DNA of 64,000 bases, taken from NCBI GenBank assembly GCA_905178155.1, contig CAJINV010000003.1:1999873-2063872 (forward strand), read 5' to 3'. Of the stretch, positions 1-64,000 are shown piece by piece. Position 1 is the stretch's first letter. Each line of letters begins with the position of its first letter. The notes below the pieces were generated by a model. It saw only the letters and a program-made list of their open reading frames with translations. It ran no database searches and was not told the origin of the DNA. A program made the translations under genes and the position numbers. Source of the DNA: Amoebophrya sp. A120. Its lineage: Eukaryota > Protista > Dinoflagellata.

Positions 1-3000
1 CTCCTTGTGGAGCTTCGTTTGACAGGTGAGAAACGCCGCTTCGCACACCTTCAGCTTGGTGCTCATGGACTCGATCTCCGCCCGCCACTTCTTCACCTGG
101 TCGCACTCCGCCTTCAACTTGCCCAAGTCGTTCTTAAACGTCGCCAACGCGTTGGTGTTGGGCGTGTTCGGTTTGTACAACTTGGAACCCGTCGTCTTCA
201 TCCAGTTTTGCGTCATGCCGCGGAGCTCCCGCGCCCGCTTCGTCATCTTCCTCGCGCGGTAGCCGCGGAAGGCCGCCTGGATTTTGATGGTTTTCTCGAG
301 TGTGGCAAACCGCACCTGCTCGTCGAGGACTTGGTGGCCCCGAAGACGGGCCATCACCTTGGTTTTTCCCATCACGTACTGGCCCTTCAACTCCGGTTGG
401 TGGAACACCTCCGGAAGGCGGTCCAGAATCAGCGTAACCACCGCCGGGTCGGGGAGCTTTTTGCCCGCTTTTTTCTCACATTCCATCCGGAGTTTCACCG
501 GAAAGCACGCACGGTATTTGCGGCAGAACTCGGCGGGCAAAGCGCGTAACGGATACCCCTGCTGCCGGATTTTCACCGCTTCCATCGCGCCGGAGAAAAT
601 CAGCTGCTCCAACACCTTCGCGCGCGTGAAAATCTTCGGATTCTTCTCGTCGTTGGGCTTGATGCACCGGACAAAATGCGGCACGGCGGAACGAATTCGC
701 TCCATTAGCGTTTTCAGCGACGCGCGGAACTGGGTTGAAACCGTCAACTTTTTCTGCTTGCCCTCTTCTTCCAGTTGCTTCCCTAAATCCCTCAGCAACT
801 CGTTCTTCGAGGTCTTCAGCACGTCCATCGCCTCGGGCGGCGGGTCGTCCGTGTTTTTTTCATGCACCCAGCCGCCGACATTGTAGGTGACCTTGCCGGC
901 GTAGTGGGTCAGCGTGAACTCCGGCGGGTCCTTGTTGAACTTGTCCGCCTCGAAGTAAGCATTCTTCTTGGTTTCCATCAGCTTCCCCAGATTGTTCATA
1001 AACGTCTTGTCCGTTTGCCGCATCCCTTTGGTGGCGTCGTCCAGTACGCTGAAGATGGAGTCCCTGGGCGCGGCAATCGTGTCCAGGATCTCCTGGTTGT
1101 CCGCGAACGTGATGCCCTCGACGGAAACCCCCTCCGCCTTGTAGTCCGCCATTTCGCGCTTGAACACGAATTCGTTGAAGTGCTGCTGCAGGTTCTCGTT
1201 GGATAAATTGATGGTGATCTGCTCCCAGGTGTTGTTGGGGAAGGACTCGAAGCCCGCGATATCCAGTAAACCCACCTCGATCTTCTTCGCGCTGCTGTTC
1301 CCGATGTCCCCGGCGACAACTTTGTTTAAGTTTTCCATCAGCCAGGCGAACAGCCGCGAGTACACCAGCGTGGCTAACCCGTTCCGCGCCTCGTTCGCCA
1401 GCTCCGGCTTCAGTTGCTTCACCGTCACGTCCTTCCCGACGATCAGCTTCTTGTTCGTGATCGCGGTCTGCAGCACCTTGTCGTCGCACTCCCAGGCGGT
1501 GGACACTTCCTTGGTCTTGTCGCAGATGGACGAATCGTTTTTCCCCGCTTTAAAACTCACGTTCCCGAGCAATAAAATGCCCGCCACCGCCTTGAACAGG
1601 TCGGCGCGCTTCTTCTCGCCGATGGTGACGTCCTCGAAGGCCGACACCACCTCGTTGTACTCGGTTTTGTCATCCACGCCGTCGGCGAGCTGGGCTCCGC
1701 TTTTCAGGTAGTTGAAGTCGCTCCACTTCGTGCCCTTCGGCAGCCCGTACTTCGCCCCGTCGGGGCCGTGCAGCAGCATGTAGAAGATGTGAAAGTTGCG
1801 CTCCAAACTGGTCTGCTTCAGCACGCGCGACTTCTCCAGCAAATAGTCCACCAGCAGCGCACCGTCGATGGAGCCCTTTTGCCCGAACATGATCGCGGTC
1901 CACTTCCCGAACCGGGACGAGTTGTTGTTCCGGGAGGTCTTCGCGTTCCCAAAAGCTTCCAAGATCGGGTTGCACTGCATGATGCGGTCCTGGATGCGGC
2001 TCTCGTTGTGCCCGGCGGAGTCCGCGAAGAACCCCAGCATGATCTTACACGCTTCGGTCTTCCCCGCCCCGGACTCTCCGGAGATCAAAATCGCCTGGTT
2101 CAAACTCTCGCGCACGCACCCCGACAGAGCGGTCTTGGCGATGGAGTACACGTGCGGGGGCTGCTCCCGGGAATCCGCCGCGTTGATGTACTTGTCCATC
2201 ACCTCGGGCGTGTCCAGGCCGAGCCGCTCGAAGGGGTGTGAAGTGTAAAAATGTCTGGGTCTGGAAGGATCCGAACTTGTGATGCGTGTTTCGGATCCTA
2301 CAAGAAAGATCTGTGATGCATAAACGTGCAAAAGCTGCCCACTTCTGGACTTGCAGAGAGGGCATTTCTCATGCAGAATACGCATCAGCAAGGAGCTGCA
2401 GAACCTGTGATGCTAGGCCCTGCATTCCAGACGTGGGGGAGCTTGGAAAAACTGCATGACAAATCTCGGAGTCTCCCAGAGGGCGCAGACATTCTTGCAT
2501 TTGATAAGGGGTTGCAGGAGACGATAATTTGGTCGATCATCGTGTAGATCTCCCCCTTCCCGTACCTATGCATTGCAAAAGTATCGTACTAGTAGTAATT
2601 GCATTCATGCATTACAAATTTTTTTCTTAAGGTAAATCCGCATGACAAATTTTATTTCTGATGCTGGGGAAATTTGTATTGCATTTATACGAGTACGATA
2701 CTTTTGCAATGCATAGTACCGGGTTTCCAACGACTGCAGCACCGCGGCGTTCACCACGGACCGCAGCTGACACACGTATGAGAGTGCACAACTCCCCCTC
2801 CCACTCATTTGTATTGCATGAACAGCAATAAAAACACCAGTACACGTGGAGCCTGCGCATGACAAATTCATGTAGTACTCCTGTTTGGGCTTCCGGAATC
2901 TGTCATGCAAACAGTGCTAAAGGGAAGCACTTGGATTTCCGGTTTTGCATGACAAATGAGGGAGAGGGAAATTTGTGCACTCTCATAACACGTCGGGTAA

Positions 3001-3446
3001 GCCCATTAAATGGTCGTCCTCCACGTCCGCGACCTTGGTGATCTCGTCCGCGGTCAGCCACACCACCTCCTCATATGCATTGCAAAAATGTCTGGGTCTG
3101 GAAAAAGTGATCTTGTGATGCTGGCCTTACATTCCAAGAAAATCTGTATTGCATGACTAACAAACGCACAGCGTTCTTTGTGATGCAAAAACGCAGTTTG
3201 TCGTGCGCGCTACGTATGAGACAGCGTTGCAGGAACTTGTCATGCTTGGCTGCATTCGAAAGCGTTTCAGTCATCCACAGTTCAGCATCACAAGTTTCCA
3301 GACCCAGACATATTTGCATGTGATACCTGACTCGCGTTCTCGATCTGGTAGCCGCGGACCTTCTTGCCCTTCATGTCCTTAGTCTGCCCCGTGTCCTTCG
3401 CCATCACATACCCCTCGACGGGGTGTGGAATCCACTGCTTCAACAT
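1..3446 (-). CDS. Myosin heavy chain, copy 1 (5' part; runs off the window start); 4 MITE-like introns in the N-terminal region
   Basis: Removing the TIR/TSD inserts gives MLKQWIPHPVEGYV...GLPDVCQL...YGKGEIYTMIDQIIVSCNPFERL, then GESGAGKT, NNNSSRFGK, LLDIAGFE, FVRCIKPN and the IQ motif IQAAFRGY. Confidence 0.95.
2237..2506. mobile_element. MITE-like intron (introner), TIR type A; also at 12227-12493 and 22214-22480
   Basis: 5-bp TSD agggg; imperfect TIR ...aaaa(a/g)tgtctgggtctgg / ccagacccagacattttt (clearest in copies 2 and 3); removal restores VSCNPFERL. Confidence 0.92.
2567..2715. mobile_element. MITE-like intron, TIR type B; also at 12554-12702 and 22541-22689
   Basis: TSD gtacc; perfect 24-bp TIR tatgcattgcaaaagtatcgtact; removal restores LETRYGKGEIY. 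Confidence 0.95.
2777..2987. mobile_element. MITE-like intron, TIR type C; also at 12764-12974; absent from copy 3
   Basis: TSD acacg; TIR tatgagagtgcacaa; empty site with a single acacg at 22746-22750. Confidence 0.96.
3074..3325. mobile_element. MITE-like intron, TIR type A; also at 13061-13312 and, diverged, at 23143-23400
   Basis: TSD cctca/cctga (perfect cctga in copy 3); TIR tatgcattgcaaaaatgtctgggtctggaa; removal restores ENASQEVVW. Confidence 0.93.
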
Positions 3447-4612
3447 CTTGCTTCTTCGCGAGGAGGGCGGGCGGGGGGGCTGAAACTAACTAAAGGAAGC
3501 GTAAAAGTGAATGGTCAAACTTTTTTGGAAAATAACCAGTTTGATGTTACAACTTAGAACTTAAAAGCGCTTAAAGTAAACGTGCTTTTTGTCGGTCTCG
3601 TCAAAAATACCGGCAGCGCCATGGTGCACGTGGGTCGTGATCATCATGGAACAAATAAAAATATTTCATTTGCATTTGGGACAGTAAAACAATCATGTAG
3701 CACAGGGTATCGAATTGGGATGATGGGTGTCACAGTGGCGTTTGGCTTGCTAGGCCACTGTTGCAAATGAGAGAATGAACGTAAATAAAATCTGAGTATA
3801 TATAACTTGCTCTACCGTGATGCCGGCTGAAAAAGAGCGAGCAGTGGCTGTGGCGCCTAGGTGCACGATGAAGTAGCAGACGTTTCTTATCAACAAGCAC
3901 GAGTTGCAGGACGAGTCAAAAAGCACAGCACGATACCGACTCAGATTGTTATTAGTCACTTTCTGCTGGGATGTTCTTGATCAGTACGACTGCAGACCGA
4001 CAATTTTAGTCTTGCCTTTGGCTTTGCGCCATGGTCATTCACATAGTACAACCGATTTTGATTTATAATTAACCACTGCCTGGATTGCAAACAAAGAGTA
4101 GTTCATTTTCATAGAGGGACCGAATTTCACGAATGAAATACTGGAGAAGCGCCAGAAAATGAGAATAGATGCGAACGCCAATGGTCTCCCATTTCGGAAG
4201 ATCATAGGCACTCGCCACTTGAGAAAGCGCTTGATTTAGATAAAGCCTTTAGTGCAATTAGAAACGTCGCGTCGCTCAATCCTTATTTCTCCGCATATTT
4301 CCGTCCATGAGGACATGCATCATGCTACTTGCGATTGCGCATCATGAGTTAAATACCTGCACTGTTACTCTCGCATCATCAGATATGCATCTTTAGGTGT
4401 AGCAAGTATTCGTGTCAAACGATAGTCGGCACTCGAATAAATCAATGCACATATTATCAGTAATTTTCTTGTGGCCCGCATGCAGCTCGGTCCTGAAACA
4501 AGGCAAACAGCATCACAAACAAAGCTCGATGTACAATCACAAGTCAAATTGTTGAAGCCTTCAGCAAGCAAGTTCGCCCGGAAACAGGGCGCACCCCAAA
4601 AAAACAAAACTG

Positions 4613-7600
4613 AATGAAGTCTCCGACTGATATCATTTGACAAAGATTGCCCCAGGGTGCAACGTGCAGAGCCTGAGACGGACATTGTCCAATGATATAG
4701 AGCCCGGCGAGGCAGTATCGCCTACGCAGGCCCGCGTCGTGCGCGACATGTGGATCGACAGCGGAGATCTAGATCGCAAATTCGCAAACTCACACTCTGA
4801 TCGAACCAACGCAAGGATACAAGTGGCGCTGCTCACTCAACCACCACCTTTGCGGGGCGATACAGTCCTGGCCGACACTCTAGCTAACTAACGACGAACA
4901 ACAACAACGAAGCTTTTTTCTTGTCTCGTCACCTGGCGAAGCCAACCCTTGCAAGCTTTTGAAGGGAGGGAGCGGACGGGTCTTTTCAAAACTTGCAGCG
5001 GAGCCACGCCTTTCCTGCAGGCGACGGCTCGAACTCAATAGTTTCCATCTCAAGTAGCTACTTTTTTCGGGCTTTTGAGGTACTCGCAAAGGGGAGGTGG
5101 CGCACACTAACTCACCTCGACTTTCACCGCGAAAGCCGTGCGGCCCCACATACAAAAAGATCGCCGCGCTCTCAGGATGGAAGCTAGCTAGGAAGTGAAC
5201 ACCAACAGCAGAACCGTCTGTAGCTAATTCTTGTGCCAACCAGAATTAGCTAGGGCGCACTAGAAATCTTTTTCAGTCTTCGTATCCTTTCCTGCGTCTA
5301 CGATTTCACTCTGGATCAACGTATTGCGCATGCTCAGATCCTTAATGAAATCTCCGACTGATATCATTTGACAAAGATTGTCCCAGGGTGCAACGTGCAG
5401 AGCCTGAGACGGACACTGTCCAATGATATAGAGCTCGGCGAGGCAGTATCGCCTACGCAGGCCCGCGTCGTGCGCGACATGTGGATCGACAGCGGTGATC
5501 TAGATCGCAAATTCGCAAAATGCGTAACATCCACCACTTCCGATCCTGAGAACAGCGAAGCTTTTTGAAGGGTGCACCCCTGCCCTAAACACTTCACTAC
5601 TGTGAAGCGGCGTAGCCCTTTGCGGAAATGAAAACCAGAGGCAGCAATTGGTCGACCCACTGAAGTCAATTAGTTGTCCTCAGCAAAGTCGAAGATTTTG
5701 GCCAAACCATTTTTCCAGGTGCGAGACACTCTAACCGCGAACGATTCTAGTTTTGCTAGATAATCGCTCCAGTTGCCGCCAGCGCGACAGCATCCTATGC
5801 GCGCGGGGAAACCGATGATGGCTGTAGCTTCTTCGTTCGGGAGTCGATGTTTCAATTTTTCAAAGAAATCGCCGAGCGCCTGTTGGAACCACGCCAACCG
5901 CTTTGCCTGCGTTTCCGCATTACCCTGCTGGTTCTTCGGCGGTAGCCCTGGCTTGTGTTGGCCATACAAGTTTGCTACTAACTTGCTTGCACGGGTTGAA
6001 ACCTTTCGCAGATCCGCCGTGCCCGGGACTCTTTTGTAGGACTTCGCGCACGTGTTTGCTGGTGGATATTTGAAAAGTATCTTCTTCGCTATACCTTCCG
6101 CTTTTCCTATGGTCAGGCAGTTTGTCTGGTGCGCGATCACATTCATGTTGTCTGCTAGAATTGATCCCCGCACATGCACCAGCGGCACTCTTTCCGGCTT
6201 TACTTTCTGGCTTGCTTTTCTCTTCGGCTTCTCCAACAGTGCCAAGGTACTTTCCGAGTACCCTTCGCACTTTGTCTGCAGACTTTGCGCTGGCACTGTG
6301 CTCAGCACCAGATAGGTGTCGTCTGTTGGCGGTAGGTCTACCCAGCTTGCTCCTTTCCATACTTGGAATATCGATTTATTCTTCTGGAATCTGCTCACCG
6401 TGTGAAACTTCGAATGCAAATAAGCAAGCCTGCTTTTGTATTTTGGAACTAAAACCAACGCCCGGGGGCGCTGTGCTTCCGGGACTTTCATGTAGTCCAC
6501 CAATTTCTTGAGGACCGGCATAATTGCAAAGCTGCCTGGATGCCACCAACTCAATTCCAGCGCCATTTCGTGGTCTGTGGTCTGGTACGCGTCCGTGATG
6601 TGGTTTTTGAAATAATCCACCAGTCTGCTGTGACCCTCACGATCACGCATCGCGTCCACTGTTGGCGTGATTTTCAGCCTTGAGCATACCGACGACAACG
6701 CTTCTGGTTTTAGTCGTTTGCTCGGGTTCTGGTCGTACAGCGTACTGCTGAGCTGTAGTCGGCTGATCGCGTCTGCTATCACATTATGCTTGCCCCGCAC
6801 ATGTTGCGCCAGCATTTTTATTCCCAACCTGTTTTGCATCAACTTGATGGCCTTGGCTTTTTCTGCGAGCCACTGTTTCCGCCCGGTCCCAAAGTTGATG
6901 TAGTGCATGGCACTGGTATTGTCTGTCCGCAGAAGGATAATTCTGCCCGCAAAACGTTCGCCGTATTTTTTTAGCCATTCTGCGACTGTGGTCAGATCCC
7001 TTTTGTTGGAGTGTCTTTGGTCGATTTCTTCGCTGAAGTCGCCCTCGTGCCGCACTTCGTCCCCGTCCGCCGTCAGCCCCCAATGAAACCCGCTAGCATC
7101 ACTTGTGACGATCATGAAAGAGGCGGGATCAATATCTTGGAAGATTTCGGGATGATCAAGCAATTCCGGAGTAAACAGGAAAGATAAGCCCTCGGTCGTG
7201 GAAAAGATGGGGATAAAAGGATCGTCTTTGAGGACTTGAAGCCACCAAGAAAAATCTGCTATGACCGCAGCGGAGAGCTGGGGAGATGGACTGAAAGACT
7301 TGCGTCCTTTGGTCCATGCAGCGATAGCCCCCGAATCCCCAAGCAAGTCGTAAGCGTTCCGCAGAAATGCGCGCCCAGCCGAGACAACAAAGGAGATGAA
7401 GTTCAACTTTCCTACTATCGACGCCAGATCTTTTGCGTTCGTTGATAATCCGTTCGCGGCCTCTTGCAAGCATTTTCTAATGCTGCAATATACTTTTCGC
7501 GTTGTTCTGGGTCCACGTAAATCCGCATCTTGATGGCGTTGATCATGAACCCTATCCAGCAGATGCACTGCGTCGGATAAGTCATCTTATCCAGCTTATC

Positions 7601-8178
7601 CGCCCGGAATCCATGTAAAACCAATCCTGGAACGAAGGAAAAGGCGCGAAGTTTTAGAGGCACGAAGGTCGTCCCCTTACCGCTCACGCGTCGGATTTCG
7701 GAGGCGGCTTCGCAACACTCAGGGGCTTCCGACCGAAGATGACGAATAAATAGCTGAGAACAGTTTAACCGGGACTGGCAGCGACGCACACTGTGTGCAA
7801 ACATTACACAAGATGCACACTGCGCGCAAGCGGGAACTAAAGTGGCAAACACATCTTGCGTTGCGGGCCTTCTGGCCACATGCGTTCTAGCATGCTAAAC
7901 TTTTGGACGTGATGTCTTTCATTACGTCCCAACTGAGCCCAAGCAGCGAAAGAGGCTGTCGCGTCGACGACTTACTTTGGCTAACCGAAATCCTACAGCC
8001 TTACCGCACGGCGCGTCGGATTTCGTGCCGTAATCACTCAAGCTAACGAGGTCTTTCAGCCTTTAACTTAGTCCTTTCTATCCTATACTAATAGCTACTT
8101 TTTTCGGACTTTTGAGGTACTCGCAAAGGGGAGGTGGCGTACACTAACTCACCTCGACTTTCACCGCGAAAGCCGTGC
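4613..8178 (-). mobile_element. Defective DIRS-order (tyrosine-recombinase class) retrotransposon with split direct repeats, copy 1
   Basis: Minus-strand order A1(8178-8092)-pol-B1(5519-5344)-A2(5141-5055)-B2(4788-4613); A match 87 bp, B 176 bp; DIRS-like RNase H; empty site at 24661-24670. No gag, RT YxDD or recombinase is visible. Confidence 0.88.
5670..7620 (-). pseudogene. Retroelement pol remnant: RT C-terminus (frameshifted near 7450), RNase H, Dam-like MTase region, macrodomain
   Basis: PTQCICWIGFMIN in one frame, continuing in another as LASIVGKLNF...GRAFLR; RNase H motifs TSDASGFHWG, LRTDNTSA, HVRGKHNVIADAISR; PTVDAM..WWHPG..LVLVP; macrodomain motifs GSIL..IAHQTNC..GIAK..NLYGQ..FPARIGCCRAGGNW. 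Confidence 0.87.
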
Positions 8179-11100
8179 TGCAACTTCATTGTTGCTATTC
8201 GCGCCCGTCGCCGCCGCGGCCTCGGCGGCGGCCTTCTCCCCCGCGGCCGGCGGCGGTGCGGTCTTGGCCATCGTGTCCATGCACTGCGTGGCCATGGTCA
8301 GCAATTCCTTCTTTTCGGGCAGCTCCTTCTCGAACTTCTGTTTGGACTTGACCAGAAAAGCCCGCACGTACTCAATGAAGTCGGGCGTGGGGATGGCGTG
8401 CTGGAAGATGAAGGCGAGCAGCTTCCACCCTAAGAGCTGGGACCGCAGCCCCGGGTTGTGGGTGAGCTGCTTGATCACCTGCGCGTACATCTCGTTGGTC
8501 AGCGCCGCCTCGGACCGCGCCTTCCACACGATCGCGTACAACAGCGGCACGCGCCGCTTCTCGTCCACGGGGTGGTCCGTCATCCAACCGAGCACGTTTC
8601 GGTAGGCCGCGGTAGCGGTGGAGTTCATGCTGGCGTCCCCGATGTTCGTCAACGGGGCGGACAGCTTATTCTTGCTCCACGCGAACGTGCCCCCGGGCTC
8701 GCACGGAAGAATCTTATTCCCGTCCGGACCCGTGATGGGCTTTACCACATCCGTGTTGATGCAGGGGGCCTTGCTCATGTCACCGTACAACGCCATCACC
8801 ATGTCGAGGTTACCCGACGCCACTTTACCGTCCCTGGGGTTGATGTTGATGCGTGTTTATTCAGATATAGAAGAGTGCACATGATCAGCGATCGAGTTTT
8901 CAAAATTCAAACGCACTGGAACTGGTGCCGGCCTAGATGCGAGACGAGCCGTTTCCGTTTGTTTCTACAACAGTGCATCTGCATGTATGACTAGAATACA
9001 ATTAGCATATGCAAACAGAAACACTTTAGGAAACACGGGGAAAAAACACCAGAAGTGATTAATACCTTTGGAACAGGGACCCACGTCGAATATGGGCGAT
9101 GCGCGAAGCGTTTTCCGCCTTTGTGAGAAGATCGGCGTCGACGCCCGCATCTTGTCCGGCAAGAGCTAAATTCGCGACCTTGGTGGCCAGGCCGTGAAAA
9201 TCTTTCTTGGCTTCCAGGGTTTTCAGACAGGAATGCAGCTGTTCCTCGATCCACCCGGGGTCCATAAGCTTCGTCAACATTTCTCGCGCAGGCTTCAGAT
9301 CGTTGGCGTCCACCTGTCCATTCGCCACGCACGTTGACAGGGACGCTTGGATCCCCCGCTTGTCGCAATTGTTGATGGCCGCCGTCAGCAACTTTACGAG
9401 CTCCTTGGGAGAATCGTGCTTCAACTCGTGCTTCTCGAGCTTCTCCTCGTCCAACTTGCTCTTCAGCCGCTCCCACTGGGCTTGCAGCTTCACAAATTTC
9501 GCGCCCGCCTGCTCGTCCAACCAATCGGACTGGTTTTTTAACCCCTTCTGGGTAGCCTATGCGTCAGAGAAAATAAAAACTTTCACTTTGTTTTAATTGA
9601 AAAGAAAAACCTCATTAGGCTGAGGCTAGCTCTAGCAGGTGAAGACTGCAGCAGAAGCAAAATCACATAACGCTATGAAAGCATGCTACCACGAAACAAG
9701 TTGACAGGAAGAACGAGCTAAAAGTCGAAGAAACTTTTATTTACCTGCTCCACGACGTGCTGCAGCCGCTTGCATGCGTCGAGGTCCGACGGGCTTGGGT
9801 CGGTTCGGTCGGACAGACCGGCCATGGCGGTGATCAGCGGCAGCTGCACGGAGAGCATGTCGAGCCGGACCGCCAGGCGCTTGGCCACTTCGTCCTCGAT
9901 TGCCAGATTGGTCAGCTGGGAGACCGCGGTCTGCAACTGATCCAAATCGACCGTCTTCAGCAATGCGTTCATGTCCTTGTAGACTTCGTACTCCTTGTGG
10001 AGCTTCGTTTGACAGGTGAGAAACGCCGCTTCGCACACCTTCAGCTTGGTGCTCATGGACTCGATCTCCGCCCGCCACTTCTTCACCTGGTCGCACTCCG
10101 CCTTCAACTTGCCCAAGTCGTTCTTAAACGTCGCCAACGCGTTGGTGTTGGGCGTGTTCGGTTTGTACAACTTGGAACCCGTCGTCTTCATCCAGTTTTG
10201 CGTCATGCCGCGGAGCTCCCGCGCCCGCTTCGTCATCTTCCTCGCGCGGTAGCCGCGGAAGGCCGCCTGGATTTTGATGGTTTTCTCGAGTGTGGCAAAC
10301 CGCACCTGCTCGTCGAGGACTTGGTGGCCCCGAAGACGGGCCATCACCTTGGTTTTTCCCATCACGTACTGGCCCTTCAACTCCGGTTGGTGGAACACCT
10401 CCGGAAGGCGGTCCAGAATCAGCGTAACCACCGCCGGGTCGGGGAGCTTTTTGCCCGCTTTTTTCTCACATTCCATCCGGAGTTTCACCGGAAAGCACGC
10501 ACGGTATTTGCGGCAGAACTCGGCGGGCAAAGCGCGTAACGGATACCCCTGCTGCCGGATTTTCACCGCTTCCATCGCGCCGGAGAAAATCAGCTGCTCC
10601 AACACCTTCGCGCGCGTGAAAATCTTCGGCTTCTTCTCGTCGTTGGGCTTGATGCACCGGACAAAGTGCGGCACGGCGGAACGAATTCGCTCCATTAGCG
10701 TTTTCAGCGACGCGCGGAACTGGGTTGATACCGTCAACTTTTTCTGCTTGCCCTCTTCTTCCAGTTGCTTCCCTAAATCCCTCAGCAACTCGTTCTTCGA
10801 GGTCTTCAGCACGTCCATCGCCTCGGGCGGCGGGTCGTCCGTGTTTTTTTCATGCACCCAGCCGCCGACATTGTAGGTGACCTTGCCGGCGTAGTGGGTC
10901 AGCGTGAACTCCGGCGGGTCCTTGTTGAACTTGTCCGCCTCGAAGTAAGCATTCTTCTTGGTTTCCATCAGCTTCCCCAGATTGTTCATAAACGTCTTGT
11001 CCGTTTGCCGCATCCCTTTGGTGGCGTCGTCCAGTACGCTGAAGATGGAGTCCCTGGGCGCGGCAATCGTGTCCAGGATCTCCTGGTTGTCCGCGAACGT

Positions 11101-14599: not shown

Positions 14600-17500
14600 A
14601 ATGAAGTCTCCGACTGATATCATTTGACAAAGATTGCCCCAGGGTGCAACGTGCAGAGCCTGAGACGGACATTGTCCAATGATATAGAGCCCGGCGAGGC
14701 AGTATCGCCTACGCAGGCCCGCGTCGTGCGCGACATGTGGATCGACAGCGGAGATCTAGATCGCAAATTCGCAAACTCACACTCTGATCGAACCAACGCA
14801 AGGATACAAGTGGCGCTGCTCACTCAACCACCACCTTTGCGGGGCGATACAGTCCTGGCCGACACTCTAGCTAACTAACGACGAACAACAACAACGAAGC
14901 TTTTTTCTTGTCTCGTCACCTGGCGAAGCCAACCCTTGCAAGCTTTTGAAGGGAGGGAGCGGACGGGTCTTTTCAAAACTTGCAGCGGAGCCACGCCTTT
15001 CCTGCAGGCGACGGCTCGAACTCAATAGTTTCCATCTCAAGTAGCTACTTTTTTCGGGCTTTTGAGGTACTCGCAAAGGGGAGGTGGCGCACACTAACTC
15101 ACCTCGACTTTCACCGCGAAAGCCGTGCGGCCCCACATACAAAAAGATCGCCGCGCTCTCAGGATGGAAGCTAGCTAGGAAGTGAACACCAACAGCAGAA
15201 CCGTCTGTAGCTAATTCTTGTGCCAACCAGAATTAGCTAGGGCGCACTAGAAATCTTTTTCAGTCTTCGTATCCTTTCCTGCGTCTACGATTTCACTCTG
15301 GATCAACGTATTGCGCATGCTCAGATCCTTAATGAAATCTCCGACTGATATCATTTGACAAAGATTGTCCCAGGGTGCAACGTGCAGAGCCTGAGACGGA
15401 CACTGTCCAATGATATAGAGCTCGGCGAGGCAGTATCGCCTACGCAGGCCCGCGTCGTGCGCGACATGTGGATCGACAGCGGTGATCTAGATCGCAAATT
15501 CGCAAAATGCGTAACATCCACCACTTCCGATCCTGAGAACAGCGAAGCTTTTTGAAGGGTGCACCCCTGCCCTAAACACTTCACTACTGTGAAGCGGCGT
15601 AGCCCTTTGCGGAAATGAAAACCAGAGGCAGCAATTGGTCGACCCACTGAAGTCAATTAGTTGTCCTCAGCAAAGTCGAAGATTTTGGCCAAACCATTTT
15701 TCCAGGTGCGAGACACTCTAACCGCGAACGATTCTAGTTTTGCTAGATAATCGCTCCAGTTGCCGCCAGCGCGACAGCATCCTATGCGCGCGGGGAAACC
15801 GATGATGGCTGTAGCTTCTTCGTTCGGGAGTCGATGTTTCAATTTTTCAAAGAAATCGCCGAGCGCCTGTTGGAACCACGCCAACCGCTTTGCCTGCGTT
15901 TCCGCATTACCCTGCTGGTTCTTCGGCGGTAGCCCTGGCTTGTGTTGGCCATACAAGTTTGCTACTAACTTGCTTGCACGGGTTGAAACCTTTCGCAGAT
16001 CCGCCGTGCCCGGGACTCTTTTGTAGGACTTCGCGCACGTGTTTGCTGGTGGATATTTGAAAAGTATCTTCTTCGCTATACCTTCCGCTTTTCCTATGGT
16101 CAGGCAGTTTGTCTGGTGCGCGATCACATTCATGTTGTCTGCTAGAATTGATCCCCGCACATGCACCAGCGGCACTCTTTCCGGCTTTACTTTCTGGCTT
16201 GCTTTTCTCTTCGGCTTCTCCAACAGTGCCAAGGTACTTTCCGAGTACCCTTCGCACTTTGTCTGCAGACTTTGCGCTGGCACTGTGCTCAGCACCAGAT
16301 AGGTGTCGTCTGTTGGCGGTAGGTCTACCCAGCTTGCTCCTTTCCATACTTGGAATATCGATTTATTCTTCTGGAATCTGCTCACCGTGTGAAACTTCGA
16401 ATGCAAATAAGCAAGCCTGCTTTTGTATTTTGGAACTAAAACCAACGCCCGGGGGCGCTGTGCTTCCGGGACTTTCATGTAGTCCACCAATTTCTTGAGG
16501 ACCGGCATAATTGCAAAGCTGCCTGGATGCCACCAACTCAATTCCAGCGCCATTTCGTGGTCTGTGGTCTGGTACGCGTCCGTGATGTGGTTTTTGAAAT
16601 AATCCACCAGTCTGCTGTGACCCTCACGATCACGCATCGCGTCCACTGTTGGCGTGATTTTCAGCCTTGAGCATACCGACGACAACGCTTCTGGTTTTAG
16701 TCGTTTGCTCGGGTTCTGGTCGTACAGCGTACTGCTGAGCTGTAGTCGGCTGATCGCGTCTGCTATCACATTATGCTTGCCCCGCACATGTTGCGCCAGC
16801 ATTTTTATTCCCAACCTGTTTTGCATCAACTTGATGGCCTTGGCTTTTTCTGCGAGCCACTGTTTCCGCCCGGTCCCAAAGTTGATGTAGTGCATGGCAC
16901 TGGTATTGTCTGTCCGCAGAAGGATAATTCTGCCCGCAAAACGTTCGCCGTATTTTTTTAGCCATTCTGCGACTGTGGTCAGATCCCTTTTGTTGGAGTG
17001 TCTTTGGTCGATTTCTTCGCTGAAGTCGCCCTCGTGCCGCACTTCGTCCCCGTCCGCCGTCAGCCCCCAATGAAACCCGCTAGCATCACTTGTGACGATC
17101 ATGAAAGAGGCGGGATCAATATCTTGGAAGATTTCGGGATGATCAAGCAATTCCGGAGTAAACAGGAAAGATAAGCCCTCGGTCGTGGAAAAGATGGGGA
17201 TAAAAGGATCGTCTTTGAGGACTTGAAGCCACCAAGAAAAATCTGCTATGACCGCAGCGGAGAGCTGGGGAGATGGACTGAAAGACTTGCGTCCTTTGGT
17301 CCATGCAGCGATAGCCCCCGAATCCCCAAGCAAGTCGTAAGCGTTCCGCAGAAATGCGCGCCCAGCCGAGACAACAAAGGAGATGAAGTTCAACTTTCCT
17401 ACTATCGACGCCAGATCTTTTGCGTTCGTTGATAATCCGTTCGCGGCCTCTTGCAAGCATTTTCTAATGCTGCAATATACTTTTCGCGTTGTTCTGGGTC

Positions 17501-18165
17501 CACGTAAATCCGCATCTTGATGGCGTTGATCATGAACCCTATCCAGCAGATGCACTGCGTCGGATAAGTCATCTTATCCAGCTTATCCGCCCGGAATCCA
17601 TGTAAAACCAATCCTGGAACGAAGGAAAAGGCGCGAAGTTTTAGAGGCACGAAGGTCGTCCCCTTACCGCTCACGCGTCGGATTTCGGAGGCGGCTTCGC
17701 AACACTCAGGGGCTTCCGACCGAAGATGACGAATAAATAGCTGAGAACAGTTTAACCGGGACTGGCAGCGACGCACACTGTGTGCAAACATTACACAAGA
17801 TGCACACTGCGCGCAAGCGGGAACTAAAGTGGCAAACACATCTTGCGTTGCGGGCCTTCTGGCCACATGCGTTCTAGCATGCTAAACTTTTGGACGTGAT
17901 GTCTTTCATTACGTCCCAACTGAGCCCAAGCAGCGAAAGAGGCTGTCGCGTCGACGACTTACTTTGGCTAACCGAAATCCTACAGCCTTACCGCACGGCG
18001 CGTCGGATTTCGTGCCGTAATCACTCAAGCTAACGAGGTCTTTCAGCCTTTAACTTAGTCCTTTCTATCCTATACTAATAGCTACTTTTTTCGGACTTTT
18101 GAGGTACTCGCAAAGGGGAGGTGGCGTACACTAACTCACCTCGACTTTCACCGCGAAAGCCGTGC
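14600..18165 (-). mobile_element. Defective DIRS-order retrotransposon, copy 2 (pol/macrodomain ORF 15657-17555)
   Basis: Appears identical to 4613-8178 at offset 9987, with the same junctions. Confidence 0.88.
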
Positions 18166-21100
18166 TGCAACTTCATTGTTGCTATTCGCGCCCGTCGCCG
18201 CCGCGGCCTCGGCGGCGGCCTTCTCCCCCGCGGCCGGCGGCGGTGCGGTCTTGGCCATCGTGTCCATGCACTGCGTGGCCATGGTCAGCAATTCCTTCTT
18301 TTCGGGCAGCTCCTTCTCGAACTTCTGTTTGGACTTGACCAGAAAAGCCCGCACGTACTCAATGAAGTCGGGCGTGGGGATGGCGTGCTGGAAGATGAAG
18401 GCGAGCAGCTTCCACCCTAAGAGCTGGGACCGCAGCCCCGGGTTGTGGGTGAGCTGCTTGATCACCTGCGCGTACATCTCGTTGGTCAGCGCCGCCTCGG
18501 ACCGCGCCTTCCACACGATCGCGTACAACAGCGGCACGCGCCGCTTCTCGTCCACGGGGTGGTCCGTCATCCAACCGAGCACGTTTCGGTAGGCCGCGGT
18601 AGCGGTGGAGTTCATGCTGGCGTCCCCGATGTTCGTCAACGGGGCGGACAGCTTATTCTTGCTCCACGCGAACGTGCCCCCGGGCTCGCACGGAAGAATC
18701 TTATTCCCGTCCGGACCCGTGATGGGCTTTACCACATCCGTGTTGATGCAGGGGGCCTTGCTCATGTCACCGTACAACGCCATCACCATGTCGAGGTTAC
18801 CCGACGCCACTTTACCGTCCCTGGGGTTGATGTTGATGCGTGTTTATTCAGATATAGAAGAGTGCACATGATCAGCGATCGAGTTTTCAAAATTCAAACG
18901 CACTGGAACTGGTGCCGGCCTAGATGCGAGACGAGCCGTTTCCGTTTGTTTCTACAACAGTGCATCTGCATGTATGACTAGAATACAATTAGCATATGCA
19001 AACAGAAACACTTTAGGAAACACGGGGAAAAAACACCAGAAGTGATTAATACCTTTGGAACAGGGACCCACGTCGAATATGGGCGATGCGCGAAGCGTTT
19101 TCCGCCTTTGTGAGAAGATCGGCGTCGACGCCCGCATCTTGTCCGGCAAGAGCTAAATTCGCGACCTTGGTGGCCAGGCCGTGAAAATCTTTCTTGGCTT
19201 CCAGGGTTTTCAGACAGGAATGCAGCTGTTCCTCGATCCACCCGGGGTCCATAAGCTTCGTCAACATTTCTCGCGCAGGCTTCAGATCGTTGGCGTCCAC
19301 CTGTCCATTCGCCACGCACGTTGACAGGGACGCTTGGATCCCCCGCTTGTCGCAATTGTTGATGGCCGCCGTCAGCAACTTTACGAGCTCCTTGGGAGAA
19401 TCGTGCTTCAACTCGTGCTTCTCGAGCTTCTCCTCGTCCAACTTGCTCTTCAGCCGCTCCCACTGGGCTTGCAGCTTCACAAATTTCGCGCCCGCCTGCT
19501 CGTCCAACCAATCGGACTGGTTTTTTAACCCCTTCTGGGTAGCCTATGCGTCAGAGAAAATAAAAACTTTCACTTTGTTTTAATTGAAAAGAAAAACCTC
19601 ATTAGGCTGAGGCTAGCTCTAGCAGGTGAAGACTGCAGCAGAAGCAAAATCACATAACGCTATGAAAGCATGCTACCACGAAACAAGTTGACAGGAAGAA
19701 CGAGCTAAAAGTCGAAGAAACTTTTATTTACCTGCTCCACGACGTGCTGCAGCCGCTTGCATGCGTCGAGGTCCGACGGGCTTGGGTCGGTTCGGTCGGA
19801 CAGACCGGCCATGGCGGTGATCAGCGGCAGCTGCACGGAGAGCATGTCGAGCCGGACCGCCAGGCGCTTGGCCACTTCGTCCTCGATTGCCAGATTGGTC
19901 AGCTGGGAGACCGCGGTCTGCAACTGATCCAAATCGACCGTCTTCAGCAATGCGTTCATGTCCTTGTAGACTTCGTACTCCTTGTGGAGCTTCGTTTGAC
20001 AGGTGAGAAACGCCGCTTCGCACACCTTCAGCTTGGTGCTCATGGACTCGATCTCCGCCCGCCACTTCTTCACCTGGTCGCACTCCGCCTTCAACTTGCC
20101 CAAGTCGTTCTTAAACGTCGCCAACGCGTTGGTGTTGGGCGTGTTCGGTTTGTACAACTTGGAACCCGTCGTCTTCATCCAGTTTTGCGTCATGCCGCGG
20201 AGCTCCCGCGCCCGCTTCGTCATCTTCCTCGTGCGGTAGCCGCGGAAGGCCGCCTGGATTTTGATGGTTTTCTCGAGTGTGGCAAACCGCACCTGCTCGT
20301 CGAGGACTTGGTGGCCCCGAAGACGGGCCATCACCTTGGTTTTTCCCATCACGTACTGGCCCTTCAACTCCGGTTGGTGGAACACCTCCGGAAGGCGGTC
20401 CAGAATCAGCGTAACCACCGCCGGGTCGGGGAGCTTTTTGCCCGCTTTTTTCTCACATTCCATCCGGAGCTTCACCGGAAAGCACGCGCGGTACTTCCGG
20501 CAGAACTCGGCGGGCAAAGCGCGTAACGGATACCCCTGCTGCCGGATTTTCACCGCCTCCATGGCGCCGGAAAAAATCAGCTGCTCCAACACCTTCGCGC
20601 GCGTGAAAATCTTCGGTTTCTTCTCGTCGTTGGGCTTGATGCACCGGACAAAATGCGGCACGGCGGAACGAATTCGCTCCATTAGCGTTTTCAGCGACGC
20701 GCGGAACTGGGTTGAAACCGTCAACTTTTTCTGCTTGCCCTCTTCCTCCAATTGCTTCCCTAAATCCCGCAGCAACTCGTTCTTCGAGGTCTTCAGCACG
20801 TCCATCGCCTCGGGCGGCGGGTCGTCCGTGTTTTTTTCATGCACCCAGCCACCGACATTGTAGGTGACCTTGCCGGCGTAGTGGGTCAGCGTGAACTCCG
20901 GCGGGTCCTTGTTGAACTTGTCCGCCTCGAAGTAAGCATTCTTCTTGGTTTCCATCAGCTTCCCCAGATTGTTCATAAACGTCTTGTCCGTTTGCCGCAT
21001 CCCTTTGGTGGCGTCGTCCAGTACGCTGAAGATGGAGTCCCTGGGCGCGGCAATCGTGTCCAGGATCTCCTGGTTGTCCGCGAACGTGATGCCCTCGACG

Positions 21101-24746: not shown

Positions 24747-27612
24747 TTACTTGAGTCCCGGCCGGGTTGTCGAGAATGAATACTCAGCGCTCCGCATACG
24801 ATTCGTCTGGCTCGCGTTGTACAGCTGTGCGTGGTGTGCAGCGGCAGAAAGACCGCGCCTGGAGACTACGGCTCTATTGAGAGAGTCCATCTGGGCATCC
24901 AGTATTTCCTGCATTCTGGCACCAATCCTCTCCATTTCCAAAAGCCGCTCCCGGCGCGTCAAAGGCTGACGTCGTTTTGTAGATTCGTTGTCGTTCGGCT
25001 GATGTCGCGGAAAACAGTGCGATTACGTATACCTCTTGCTATTCCATTGGAAAACCGCAAAATCAAATTAATCTATACGAGAAAAAACGCCTGCGGAAAT
25101 GTATGTAGGTATACCTTTTCTGGGTCGTCGGCATCCCCACCCGCATCGCCAGCAGCACCACCAGCCCCCTTTTTCGGGGTTCGGAGGTTGTCACTTACAG
25201 CTGATGTCGCGCTGCCGGCGACTTCAGTCGACGCAGTTGCCCCACGACTGGCAGTTGGTGGTACCAGAAGCAGCCGAAATTCATCCTCGTCTTTGTCTTT
25301 CTCGTTCCCTCTAGTACCGCCCCGACGCGGTGGCGTCGAGGAGGCCAGTCGCTGCTTGAACTCTGGACTACGCAGTTGCCGCTCGATCCGGGATATCAAA
25401 TGTAAAAATGTCTGGGTCTGGAAGATTCTGAGACTTGTCATGCACGTTTTGCATGGGCCATGATGTCTGTGATGCATGCCCTAGCGTCACAGACTTTTTG
25501 AGGGCTCTGCGATGCCTATTCCGCATGGCAAATGGAAATGCCCTCACCGCGTAGCCAAAATTGCATTCCCTTTGCTACTTATGCAATACAGATTTTTTTG
25601 GAATCCAAATGCAGCATCACAAGTTCGGATTCTTCCAGACCCGGACATTTTTGCATTTGATACGGGACTCGACGCCGGACTTCAACGTGGCCACAGCTTG
25701 CTGCTGCCTCGGCGTGGACATCGATACTGTCGCTGACTCCGACAAGAGCAGGCCTTTGCTTCGTGATCCTCGCAGCGTGGTCGCATTATCGCTCTTCTCC
25801 TCTGATGCTCCTGGCTGAGGATTTTTCTCTTGTTCACCTGCAACTACTCCCGCTGGGTCTGCCTCTGTATTTCCTCCTCTGGATTTGTTCTTTTGCGGGG
25901 GAGTGCTTTTGACGAACTGCGCCGGTTGTCCAGATCTTCGTGTAGAAGAAGTTCCAGGCGACTCGCCGGCGACCACCATAGAACCACTTCCCGGTGCGCC
26001 GGAAGCAGATGGTGCGACCGTGACCACGGTATTGATGTTCTGCCACGGATTACTTGCGCTGCTACGAGCCCCGCCCGGACGCGTCGCGCTCCCCGGCCGG
26101 GCTCGCGCGTTGCTTGGTGGTTTATTTCGGGGACCAGGAGGTCTTTGCGGTGCACGGAGGTGTTGCCGCTTGTAGGCTAAAGAGAGACTCGTCGAACAAC
26201 CAGAATTATCGCCAATATTGCCCGCTCTCAAAGTGCTCACGGTCACAGTACCTCCGCCGTCGGTACCGTCACGCTGCGGGGCGGAAGCAGAACTGGCTTG
26301 CGCGACGACCCCAGCGCCGCTGCTGCGCGATACTAGAAAAACGCGCGGGCTTGGACTGGCTGCTGCTCGTACTCGCATCGGAGTGGCCGCGGCGCTGCTG
26401 GACGAGGGACCACTTTTTATTGTCGCGCCGCTTGGGGGCAGCACGGAGTAGGGCTGTCGGGCGTCTTTATCCGGCTGACTTTTCAAAAGCTGCCGTTGTA
26501 AGTGTCTCGCATAGGGTAGATCCTGCATCCAGGAGGTATCGTTAGGTTTCTTCGTCCGCGCCTGCTGGGACGCTGAAGACGGTGTCGTTAGATTTCTTGA
26601 CGCTTGGCTCGATCTGGATCGTGCACGAGCGGTTTTGCTCTGTAGTTGCTCGGGCGGGCGCAAAACGTGTTGTTGTTCCAAAGCCGCCGCCACTCCAACC
26701 TGTAGCTGTACCCGTTTGATGGTCATCATCATCATCATCTTTGTTTTTGCCCGTGACATTGGAATTATGTCTTTTCTCATCGTTCCTCTCGAGTGGACGC
26801 ACACTCGAGCGCATTAATTTGTTGTGACATCCTGTTTGATGGCGTAATCTAATATAATTAGAATTACTAAGCCACGATTTGAAGGATTGGCCCCGAGCAT
26901 ACCATACAATGAATCATCGAGTGTAAAAATGTGTGTCACCTCGACCTCCTTCCGGTAAGACGTCATCAGCCAAATGTAAATGTAAACTCAGATTCAGTTT
27001 CTTTGGTAGTCGTCAACGTCTAGAGCTTACTAGCGTTAGTTGTGGCACGCGGGCAGTCTAGTGAAGCCCTTAGCCTTATGGGATGAAACACGCACCTGCT
27101 GCGCGGAGGTTGGCGACGGGCGGCTTCTTGGATTGTTAGCAGACGGCACTGGATTCGGGAGAAGCAAAGGCGAGTCTGCCTGCTGCTTTTCCTCCTTGGC
27201 AAAATCTCGCGGAACAACGGGTGGCGCCGATGGACTTGCGCTCGAAGCGACTTTATGCCGTATGAGTTCCTCAAGTCGCTCCAGTGCCCGCGCACTATCG
27301 TTGCTCATCTCCATGGGTGGCTGTGGTTAATAGGGTTAAAAAGTGGTTGTAGGGAACGTCCACGTTTTTCTTTGCCGTCAGACAGAAGTAATAAGTACCT
27401 ACATGCTCATCCTCTTCTTGATGTTCAGACACCATTATAAAATCGCACCTTAACAATCGACATGCAGACGTTGCAGGAGTAGCTAGATTGAGCAAACAAG
27501 TATCTTATACTGAAACGCCAGCAGTAGACGTTAGCACCGTCTCCCCTCCCTTCTCCAATTCGTTGAAAAGCCTCGTGGCCCATTGCACGACATATTCCTC
27601 AGCGGACGCCAT
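24747..27612 (-). CDS. Multi-exon hypothetical protein, Ser/Ala/Pro-rich low complexity
   Basis: Collinear minus-strand ORFs 27036-27314, 25617-26804, 25073-25477 and 24747-24962; frame restored across the 25394 insert (GVESR|IERQLR); start codon tentative. Confidence 0.6.
25394..25662. mobile_element. MITE-like intron, TIR type A
   Basis: TSD cggga; TIR tatcaaatgtaaaaatgtctgggtctggaaga. Confidence 0.94.
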
Positions 27613-63644: not shown

Positions 63645-64000
63645 ATTGCTGAAGTAGCCACTTCAACAGTTTGCGTTGTTGTTCGGTTTACAACTTGCCA
63701 TGCAGTTGTTATGGAAGTGGCTACTTCAATTCGCACAGGCAAACTGTTGAAGTTGCCATTTCAAAAACTTGCGCTGTGCAAATTTTTGAAGTAGTCACTT
63801 CAACAATTTGCGTTCTTGTTGTTGTTCGGCTTGGGTTTGCAACGTGTCACGCAGCTTGTGTTGAAATGGCCATTTCAACATTTTGCACAACCCGAATTGT
63901 TGAAATGGCCATTTCAACAATTCGCAGAACCCGAATTGTTGAAATGGCCATTTCAACATTTTGCGCAACCCGAATTGTTGAAATGGCCATTTCAACAATT
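63645..64000. repeat. Palindromic minisatellite, 39-bp unit, runs off the window end
   Basis: Core tgttgaaatggccatttcaaca occurs four times from 63859 at 39-bp spacing; degenerate copies near 63645, 63745 and 63783. Confidence 0.9.

What the first reader, a model, noticed from the sequence alone, without database searches (positions are those of the whole stretch)
5670..6188. DIRS-type retrotransposon pol fused to a phage/giant-virus-like macrodomain
Seen: the ORF carrying RT-thumb, RNase H and Dam-like regions continues in frame into ~170 aa with GSIL, IAHQTNC, GIAK, NLYGQ and FPARIGCCRAGGNW, and ends inside the element's repeats. Known: these motifs typify Poa1p/TARG1/DarG-class ADP-ribose hydrolases. 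DIRS pol normally ends with RNase H, sometimes followed by an MTase. I know macrodomains from RNA viruses and a few other retroelement classes, but not from YR retrotransposons. Inference: a captured counter-defence module that erases host ADP-ribosylation on protein or on the DNA circle intermediate, i.e. a possibly undescribed retroelement lineage and host-element conflict.
Basis: partly seen in the sequence, partly recalled or inferred. Interest (0 to 1): 0.85.

Follow-up and report, generated by a model that had tools for sequence, protein, structure and literature searches.

The report
Dead recombinase retrotransposon carrying ADP-ribose eraser
A broken jumping gene in what is likely a parasitic marine dinoflagellate ends its copying-enzyme gene in a domain, with closest matches in viruses and bacteria, predicted to strip ADP-ribose tags from DNA, which would help the element dodge a still untested host defence; its closest known relatives lack this domain.

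Summary
The minus-strand ORF 7586-5670 runs RT thumb, RNase H, a Dam-like domain, a linker, then a macrodomain (6188-5670). The macrodomain is real (AF2 pLDDT 90.8; Z about 17 to BT1257, DarG, TARG1). It is SCO6735/BT1257-like (His, Asn, Gln kept; no DarG/TARG1 lysine), in a subfamily of phage, giant-virus, bacterial and Gypsy-borne domains. The element has split direct repeats (A...B-A-B), so it is PAT-like in structure, not DIRS1. Its closest pol relatives are Amoebophrya gene models. This copy is dead: no gag or recombinase found, RT mostly deleted and frameshifted, private changes at an RNase H catalytic site and the macrodomain adenine-binding Asp. The fusion was seen only here and in a segmental duplicate: 0 of 149 relatives carry both parts, and three close relatives end right after the Dam-like domain. 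Best reading: a lineage-specific cargo captured at the pol C-terminus, likely an eraser for thymidine-ADP-ribose on single-stranded cDNA; activity and benefit are untested. I found no paper on a macrodomain in a recombinase retrotransposon. Macrodomains are known in fish ERVs, and this scan noted them before in Gypsy elements of other genomes.

The parts
4613..8190 (-). Whole element: 5'-truncated, internally deleted split-direct-repeat retrotransposon (about 3.6 kb)
   Evidence: Repeats and junctions; the third tandem unit lacks it and diverges at about 24670
8092..8178 (-). A1: 87-nt remnant of the 5' repeat, 97.7% identical to 5055-5141
8179..8190 (-). 12-nt junction filler holding an 8-nt inverted copy of the element's other end (4613-4620); joins the element to a truncated myosin tail exon
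   Evidence: another continuation of the myosin tail is seen as a loose end at 8207 in X1, X2, X3
7778..7819 (-). CX2CX4HX4C zinc knuckle, likely a gag remnant
   Evidence: Pfam zf-CCHC_4 only E=0.094; pattern found in 10 of 20000 shuffles of the segment (pattern chosen after seeing it)
7662..7679 (-). Remnant of the RT catalytic motif: stop-G-D-D-L-R, out of frame with the next RT piece
   Evidence: Relatives read F/Y-V-D-D-L/I-R-G; no RT similarity upstream; identified by motif and position, not by a profile hit
7478..7654 (-). C-terminal RT piece, one frameshift away from the long ORF
   Evidence: 44% identical to P0012 1047-1105; family RT profile E=3e-15
7110..7445 (-). RT thumb and connection, start of the homologous part of the long ORF
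6759..7109 (-). RNase H (SDAS ... TDN ... ADAISR); second catalytic acid is Asp where the 7 aligned relatives have Glu
   Evidence: Alignment A4 profile hits PDB 8r0s RNase H region E=1.6e-8; motif spacing 333 nt against a median of 330
6290..6740 (-). Dam-like (MT) domain with degenerate motifs (WHPG for xFPP, PKY for PxW)
   Evidence: 6 of 12 rows of A4 hit Pfam Dam, best 1.1e-9, the window row itself none; Atlas neighbours carry Dam and RT_RNaseH in 12-13% of members; spacings 231 and 99 nt against medians 216 and 78
6189..6289 (-). Lys-rich linker, absent from the relatives that stop after the Dam-like domain
5670..6188 (-). ALC1/TARG1-class macrodomain, SCO6735/BT1257-like, 172 aa plus stop
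5344..5519 (-). Repeat B1, 96.6% identical to B2
4789..5343 (-). Repeat A2; only 5055-5144 is matched by A1, the full 555-nt extent is inferred
   Evidence: Diverged contigs in X2 and X3 match 5064-5349 and 4717-5145 and leave the window's sequence at the B1 boundary, like solo AB repeats
4613..4788 (-). Repeat B2, 3' end of the element
   Evidence: a further B copy with another flank in X2 (record 11)
14600..18177 (-). Second copy inside a 9987-nt segmental tandem duplication (macrodomain 15657-16175); not an independent insertion
   Evidence: 1 difference in 3700 nt, outside the element; protein 100% identical

Best explanation
This is a dead, deleted copy of a split-direct-repeat retrotransposon whose pol ORF ends in an in-frame macrodomain; the domain was likely captured by a sub-lineage of the family before this copy decayed, and it would strip ADP-ribose from thymidines of the element's single-stranded cDNA (or from acidic residues of its proteins), protecting replication from host ADP-ribosylation. 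Shown: architecture, fold, residue pattern, dead state, absence from close relatives. Inferred: recombinase-type element (from repeats, the Dam-like domain and a relative with recombinase-like motifs upstream of RT), capture before decay, hydrolase activity, substrate, benefit. The pol fusion would carry the eraser into the particle where cDNA is made.
For: Fold and class: A3 profile hits BT1257 1.7e-29, SCO6735 2.2e-25, DarG 6.8e-21, TARG1 5.8e-18; model Z 17.1 (rmsd 2.5, 147 aligned) to 2fg1, tied with DarG and TARG1 at 16.9. His20, Asn23, Gln77 align with SCO6735 His24, Asn27, Gln85; mutating Asn27 or Gln85 abolishes or nearly abolishes SCO6735 activity, and SCO6735 prefers thymidine-ADP-ribosylated DNA (PMC9411070). 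DIRS-1 cDNA is mostly linear single-stranded DNA (PMC7192593 abstract). Capture before decay: the domain follows a complete Dam-like domain through a linker and precedes B1, while all breaks seen lie 5' of 7445; its GC3 equals that of the rest of pol (95/168 against 229/402, p=0.93) and differs from the adjacent myosin (678/800). Retroelements take up this same subfamily: a 3458-aa RT-RNase H-integrase polyprotein on L194 holds a 37% identical domain, and P0055, P0058, P0082 share its protease-like region. Dinoflagellate A-B-A-B elements are known to add enzymes to pol (PMC5890265).
Against: The fusion is seen once: of 149 non-self rows 55 match the pol part, 94 the macrodomain, 0 both (150 of 2056 hits were listed); only self among 7996 and 331 candidates of 334-1066 aa; no second pol-macrodomain copy at 80-85% identity or more in X2, X3. 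P0013, P0014, P0015 end 6-15 aa after the Dam-like domain. No dN/dS is possible. The open frame needs no selection: at the repeats' divergence P(no stop) is 0.32-0.45. The adenine-binding Asp is Ser (Asp or Asn in 116 of 118 relatives), so this copy may bind poorly. GC3 does not separate it from several other host ORFs (0.53-0.59). No recombinase in the copy. No host DNA ADP-ribosyltransferase was looked for.
Confidence: 0.5

Rival explanations
1. One-off chimera: during the rearrangements that broke this copy, or by a template switch, a viral or Gypsy macrodomain was joined in frame to pol; it never spread and has no role in the element's cycle.
For: Single locus plus a segmental duplicate; 0 of 149 relatives fused; the copy has several deletion junctions and sits on a duplication breakpoint; private substitutions at key residues.
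Against: A clean in-frame join at the natural end of the Dam-like domain with a linker and a whole domain; no donor within 46% identity and a long branch (0.8-1.2), which point to long residence in this or another fast-evolving element; matching GC3.
Confidence: 0.22
2. The fusion is a real family trait, but the domain is a non-catalytic ADP-ribose reader or acts on protein or RNA ends (for example targeting to PARP-marked chromatin or tidying RNA 2'/1'' phosphates), not a counter-defence eraser for cDNA.
For: No DarG/TARG1 Lys; Foldseek ranks Poa1p first and the top structural classes are tied; the class includes the binding-only ALC1 domain (recalled); the neighbouring Dam-like domain has lost its xFPP motif family-wide, so non-catalytic passengers persist in this pol.
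Against: The SCO6735-type His, Asn, Gln set and the GC-x-x-GG loop are kept.
Confidence: 0.2
3. The RNase H-Dam-like-macrodomain part has been domesticated as a host gene (an ATG at 7112 gives the 481-aa P0001).
For: Breaks cluster 5' of 7445 while 590 codons downstream are open.
Against: Open frame fits neutral decay; catalytic Glu of RNase H changed; run X6 of the same species label holds the flanks at depth 28-113 but only traces of the element; no expression evidence.
Confidence: 0.08

Closest known systems
PAT-like / TOC tyrosine-recombinase retrotransposons (order DIRS; PMC4157794, PMC3266345, passages)
   Same: A1...B1-A2-B2 split direct repeats, RT-RNase H-MT pol, CCHC knuckle, motif order and spacing
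   Different: C-terminal macrodomain; no recombinase between pol and B1; degenerate MT motifs; family RT motif FVDDLR; clade placement by RT tree not tested
SymbioDIRS-Dnmt3 of Symbiodinium (PMC5890265, passages)
   Same: Dinoflagellate-lineage A-coding-B-A-B element with an extra enzyme in the pol ORF; order of recombinase and pol can be swapped
   Different: Cargo is a C5 methyltransferase, shown active and present in many copies; here a macrodomain in one dead locus
Amoebophrya AT5.2 and A25 gene models P0012-P0016
   Same: 36-49% identical RT thumb, RNase H, Dam-like domain; same degenerate MT motif
   Different: No macrodomain; P0013-15 stop after MT; P0012 has recombinase-like motifs upstream of RT (by eye) and a JmjC/cupin tail that may be a gene-model fusion
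SCO6735 (PDB 5E3B) and BT1257 (2FG1), ALC1-like class (PMC9411070)
   Same: Fold; His24, Asn27, Gln85 equivalents; no catalytic Lys
   Different: 21-24% identity; Ser for the adenine-binding Asp; Cys-Arg for Gly-Leu in the phosphate loop (7 of 118 relatives share this); fused to pol
DarG and TARG1/OARD1
   Same: Fold, Z 16.9
   Different: Catalytic Lys80/Lys84 replaced by Gln; no toxin partner seen
Macrodomain-bearing LTR retroelements (fish epsilon-like ERVs, PMC4977317 passage; Gypsy polyprotein on L194)
   Same: Macrodomain carried by a retroelement; the L194 domain is of the same subfamily
   Different: Integrase-based elements; in L194 the domain lies between protease-like region and RT

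Membership tests
Macrodomain, ALC1/TARG1-like class | Macro alpha/beta/alpha fold closest to ALC1-class members | tested here: met
Macrodomain, ALC1/TARG1-like class | Adenine-binding Asp of the G-D motif (role recalled) | tested here: not met
   Ser; Asp or Asn in 116 of 118 relatives
SCO6735/BT1257 subgroup | His24, Asn27, Gln85 equivalents | tested here: met
   His20, Asn23, Gln77
SCO6735/BT1257 subgroup | Hydrolysis of thymidine- and Glu/Asp-linked ADP-ribose | not testable with these tools
   needs an assay
DarG / TARG1 proper | Catalytic Lys80 / Lys84 | tested here: not met
   Gln at that column
Order DIRS (YR retrotransposons) | RT and RNase H of the DIRS/Gypsy type | tested here: met
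   RT is only a broken remnant
Order DIRS (YR retrotransposons) | Tyrosine recombinase gene | tested here: inconclusive
   None in this deleted copy; P0012 and P0025 share a region upstream of RT (E=4e-8) with recalled R...xxLR...GW...Y motifs, but Pfam, PHROG and PDB give no recombinase hit
DIRS1-like | Inverted terminal repeats plus internal complementary region | tested here: not met
   Direct repeats only; one 8-nt inverted match at the junctions
PAT-like | Split direct repeats A1-B1-A2-B2 | tested here: met
   A1 is only a remnant
PAT-like | MT (Dam-like) domain after RNase H | tested here: met
   Homologous over its length to relatives, 6 of 12 of which hit Pfam Dam; catalytic motifs degenerate
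PAT-like | RT/RNase H groups with reference PAT elements in a tree | not tested
   No reference PAT sequences were available from the tools
Ngaro / VIPER | No MT domain | tested here: not met
   Dam-like domain present (definition from PMC4157794)

The most novel reading that the evidence does not exclude
Syndinean recombinase retrotransposons have a swappable cargo slot at the end of pol (macrodomain here, JmjC in a relative), and this cargo, taken from the giant-virus/phage pool, erases thymidine-ADP-ribose from the single-stranded cDNA: evidence that dinoflagellate-lineage hosts use DNA ADP-ribosylation as an anti-transposon defence, as bacteria use DarT against phages.
Probability: 0.2. 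Interest if true: 0.8.

Novelty: new variant of a known kind. Interest (0 to 1): 0.45.

Why it matters
It would extend macrodomain capture from RNA viruses, ERVs and Gypsy elements to recombinase retrotransposons, whose single-stranded cDNA is the kind of substrate this enzyme class acts on. Repeated independent capture points to ADP-ribosylation as a pressure on retroelements, which a simple DarT-rescue or gel-shift assay can begin to test. The weight is limited by having one dead locus.

Tried and rejected
No whole genome is held, so the genome-wide search for full copies and dN/dS could not be run. Single-sequence fold was useless (pLDDT 34). Pfam and NCBIfam gave nothing on the ORF; the Dam-like region had no phage or PDB hit on its own. 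The pol scan of metagenome contigs confirmed 0 of 74 pattern matches; a viral-contig scan with the pol alignment could not be made. None of the fetched macrodomain loci matched the RNase H-Dam part within their flanks. Origin of the domain: it was sister to the Gypsy-borne L035 domain in trees of 119 and 41 rows (SH-aLRT 95; 99/92), but an AU test did not reject pairing with viral L113 (p=0.205) and in a 116-row tree with 94 more relatives that pairing vanished and no supported set held the query, so I reject any named donor. NCLDV capsid was found in the L125 record, not in 3 others; L113-L116, L118, L124 were not searchable. RNA runs X9 (0 reads) and X10 (6 diverged reads, all in myosin) do not hold this strain: no expression test; X7 has one 226-nt contig at 7450-7675, too weak to use. 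The copy at +9987 is not a second insertion. Two out-of-frame host ORF rows were dropped; 2 of 28 rows of the published motif table were dropped (one lacks a position, one is atypical). The 90%-cluster search did not cover proteins over 1066 aa. Literature searches without a relevant hit; subscription papers, Repbase and Dfam were not searchable.

Full report
Observation. The last 172 codons are a macrodomain: phrog_335 E=5e-11, 253 phage records by tblastn, best 4e-7, Atlas neighbours at 0.93-0.94 that are 80-90% viral, one set with Pfam Macro in 11% of members, 63.9 bits on a profile built without the query against a best of 9.5 for 1000 shuffles. With a 119-row alignment AlphaFold2 gives pLDDT 90.8, pTM 0.88; Foldseek ranks Poa1p, TARG1 and DarG first and VIA-align gives Z 17.1 (rmsd 2.5, 147 aligned) to BT1257, 16.9 to DarG and TARG1, 15.4 to SCO6735. 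One contig spanning 5466-8138 is letter-identical in X1, X2, X3.

Which macrodomain. The A3 profile ranks BT1257 and SCO6735 above DarG and TARG1. His20, Asn23 and Gln77 align with SCO6735 His24, Asn27 and Gln85. In PMC9411070 (passages and section 2.1 read) Gln85 stands where DarG and TARG1 have their catalytic Lys, Gln85Ala abolishes activity, Asn27Ser nearly does, and the enzyme removes thymidine-linked ADP-ribose from DNA better than protein marks. Against activity in this copy: Ser replaces the Asp of the G-D motif (Asp or Asn in 116 of 118; its adenine-binding role is recalled) and Cys stands at Gly128 (7 of 118 share it). Best sequence matches are 37-46% identical stand-alone genes on large viral contigs, some labelled giant-virus MAGs, bacterial MAG contigs, and Gypsy-type polyproteins; the best BFVD match is a marseillevirus protein. 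The donor is unresolved (see Tried and rejected).

The element. Repeats give A1 (8178-8092) ... B1 (5519-5344), A2, B2 (4788-4613) on the coding strand, the split-direct-repeat layout of PAT, Ngaro and VIPER elements (passages of PMC4157794, PMC6681497, PMC3783388, PMC3266345). Diverged contigs in X2 and X3 match A, one continuing into B, and leave the window's sequence at the B1 boundary; I read them as solo AB repeats like those in Cafeteria (PMC8547959 section 11) and infer that A is about 555 nt and A1 a remnant. Pol motifs follow the published DIRS order with spacings 333, 231 and 99 nt against medians 330, 216 and 78 in 26 of 28 tabulated elements (supplement 2 of PMC3266345); the DD-to-RNase H distance is 570 against 476-501. 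The relatives' profile hits a solved RT's RNase H region (1.6e-8) and 6 of 12 aligned rows hit Pfam Dam. Split repeats plus MT make it PAT-like by structure; DIRS1 repeats are absent.

State of the copy. A CCHC knuckle (7819-7778), a stop-GDDLR remnant at 7679 matching the family's F/Y-V-D-D-L/I-R motif, a 59-aa RT piece in another frame (7654-7478) and a further frameshift precede the long ORF; no RT similarity lies upstream and no recombinase was found. The RNase H Glu is Asp, against Glu in 7 of 7 aligned relatives. Repeat pairs differ by 2-3%, at which an open 609-codon frame survives without selection in 32-45% of 3000 simulations (substitutions only). The element lies on the junction of a 9987-nt tandem duplication of a myosin gene, whose tail it truncates; the second copy is identical and the third unit is empty. 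Contig depth over the body equals that of single flank contigs in X3 (26.3 against 22-28; the tool warns depth is no copy number), and X6 has flanks but only traces of the element.

Family. The search of 1.84 billion representatives gave 2056 hits, 150 listed. Of 149 non-self rows, 55 match the pol part, 94 the macrodomain, none both. A fused protein would score on both parts and rank high, but relatives over 50% identical to P0001 would be hidden in its cluster; the 90% clusters showed only P0001 at 334-1066 aa. The five best pol relatives are Amoebophrya AT5.2 and A25 gene models, so the host is likely a syndinean of that lineage; myosin introns with inverted repeats fit this (PMC7789003 passages). 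P0013, P0014 and P0015 end 6-15 residues after the Dam-like domain. P0012 (1700 aa, 45%) has an N-terminal region with recombinase-like motifs seen by eye only, then RT, RNase H, MT and a JmjC/cupin tail (5.8e-20); its join departs from the family motif at the MT end, so it may be a gene-model fusion. A recombinase upstream of pol would explain why none follows the macrodomain; swapped order is known in SymbioDIRS (PMC5890265 passages). The xFPP motif is degenerate in all close relatives, so the MT domain is likely inactive family-wide.

Mechanism. Most likely (0.5) a sub-lineage appended the domain to pol, so that it travels with RT and RNase H and removes ADP-ribose from the cDNA, which in DIRS-1 is mostly linear and single-stranded (PMC7192593 abstract only), or from the element's proteins. 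Position, linker, whole domain and matching GC3 favour capture before decay. Rivals: one-off chimera (0.22), reader or other substrate (0.2), domestication (0.08). Nothing here tests activity, expression or a host transferase.

Novelty. Searches found no paper joining DIRS/YR elements with a macrodomain (0 papers; 0 occurrences in the 30 listed of 206; nothing relevant in listings). Repbase, Dfam, most subscription papers and unread supplements could hold it. Macrodomain ORFs are known in fish ERVs (PMC4977317 passage). I confirmed one RT-RNase H-integrase polyprotein with this subfamily on L194, a contig filed in a bacterial MAG. Earlier notes of this scan list 8 macrodomain-retrotransposon findings in at least 4 other genomes, all LTR/Gypsy-type as worded, and none for recombinase elements; they are unchecked AI notes. 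Verdict: a real, new domain combination of a known kind, resting on one dead locus; interest 0.45.

Noticed in passing
L194 3-10376 (-), G002:C20: 3458-aa open Gypsy-type polyprotein (RT, RNase H, integrase by Pfam) with this macrodomain subfamily between the protease-like region and RT, on a contig filed in a Deltaproteobacteria MAG; likely eukaryotic contamination. P0055, P0082, P0058 are relatives; P0058 also has a SET domain.
   Followed up: partly
P0012: Amoebophrya AT5.2 model with recombinase-like region, RT, RNase H, MT and JmjC/cupin in one 1700-aa frame; recombinase before RT. May be a gene-model fusion.
   Followed up: partly
window 1-24670: Three tandem copies of a myosin gene with a MyTH4-like tail (recalled motif), period about 9987 nt; the element sits at the unit junctions and truncates the tail. 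Depth in X2 and X3 does not support two element-bearing units, so one may be cell-to-cell variation or an assembly duplicate.
   Followed up: partly
window 8183-8190 and 4613-4620: The last 8 nt of repeat B recur inverted exactly at the other junction of the element; unexplained, perhaps templated filler at the duplication breakpoint.
   Followed up: partly
window 2236-3330, 25384-25666, 41262-41485, 42499-42772, 60614-60894: Nested inverted-repeat elements of 200-280 nt inside introns, repeated across the window, introner- or MITE-like; many more copies in X3 and X8.
   Followed up: no
P0060: Pol relative with an N-terminal C5 DNA methyltransferase plus RT, RNase H and MT-like tail (1230 aa), resembling SymbioDIRS-Dnmt.
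   Followed up: no
P0122, P0087, P0091: Macrodomain relatives fused to NADAR, SRAP and SLOG domains, which fits a role in DNA ADP-ribosylation or damage repair.
   Followed up: no
window 63745-64000: 39-nt tandem array with internal palindromes at the window end.
   Followed up: no
run X7, joint 4376-7738: One low-depth contig from a polyA metatranscriptome joins 4376 to 7738; probably a chimera.
   Followed up: no
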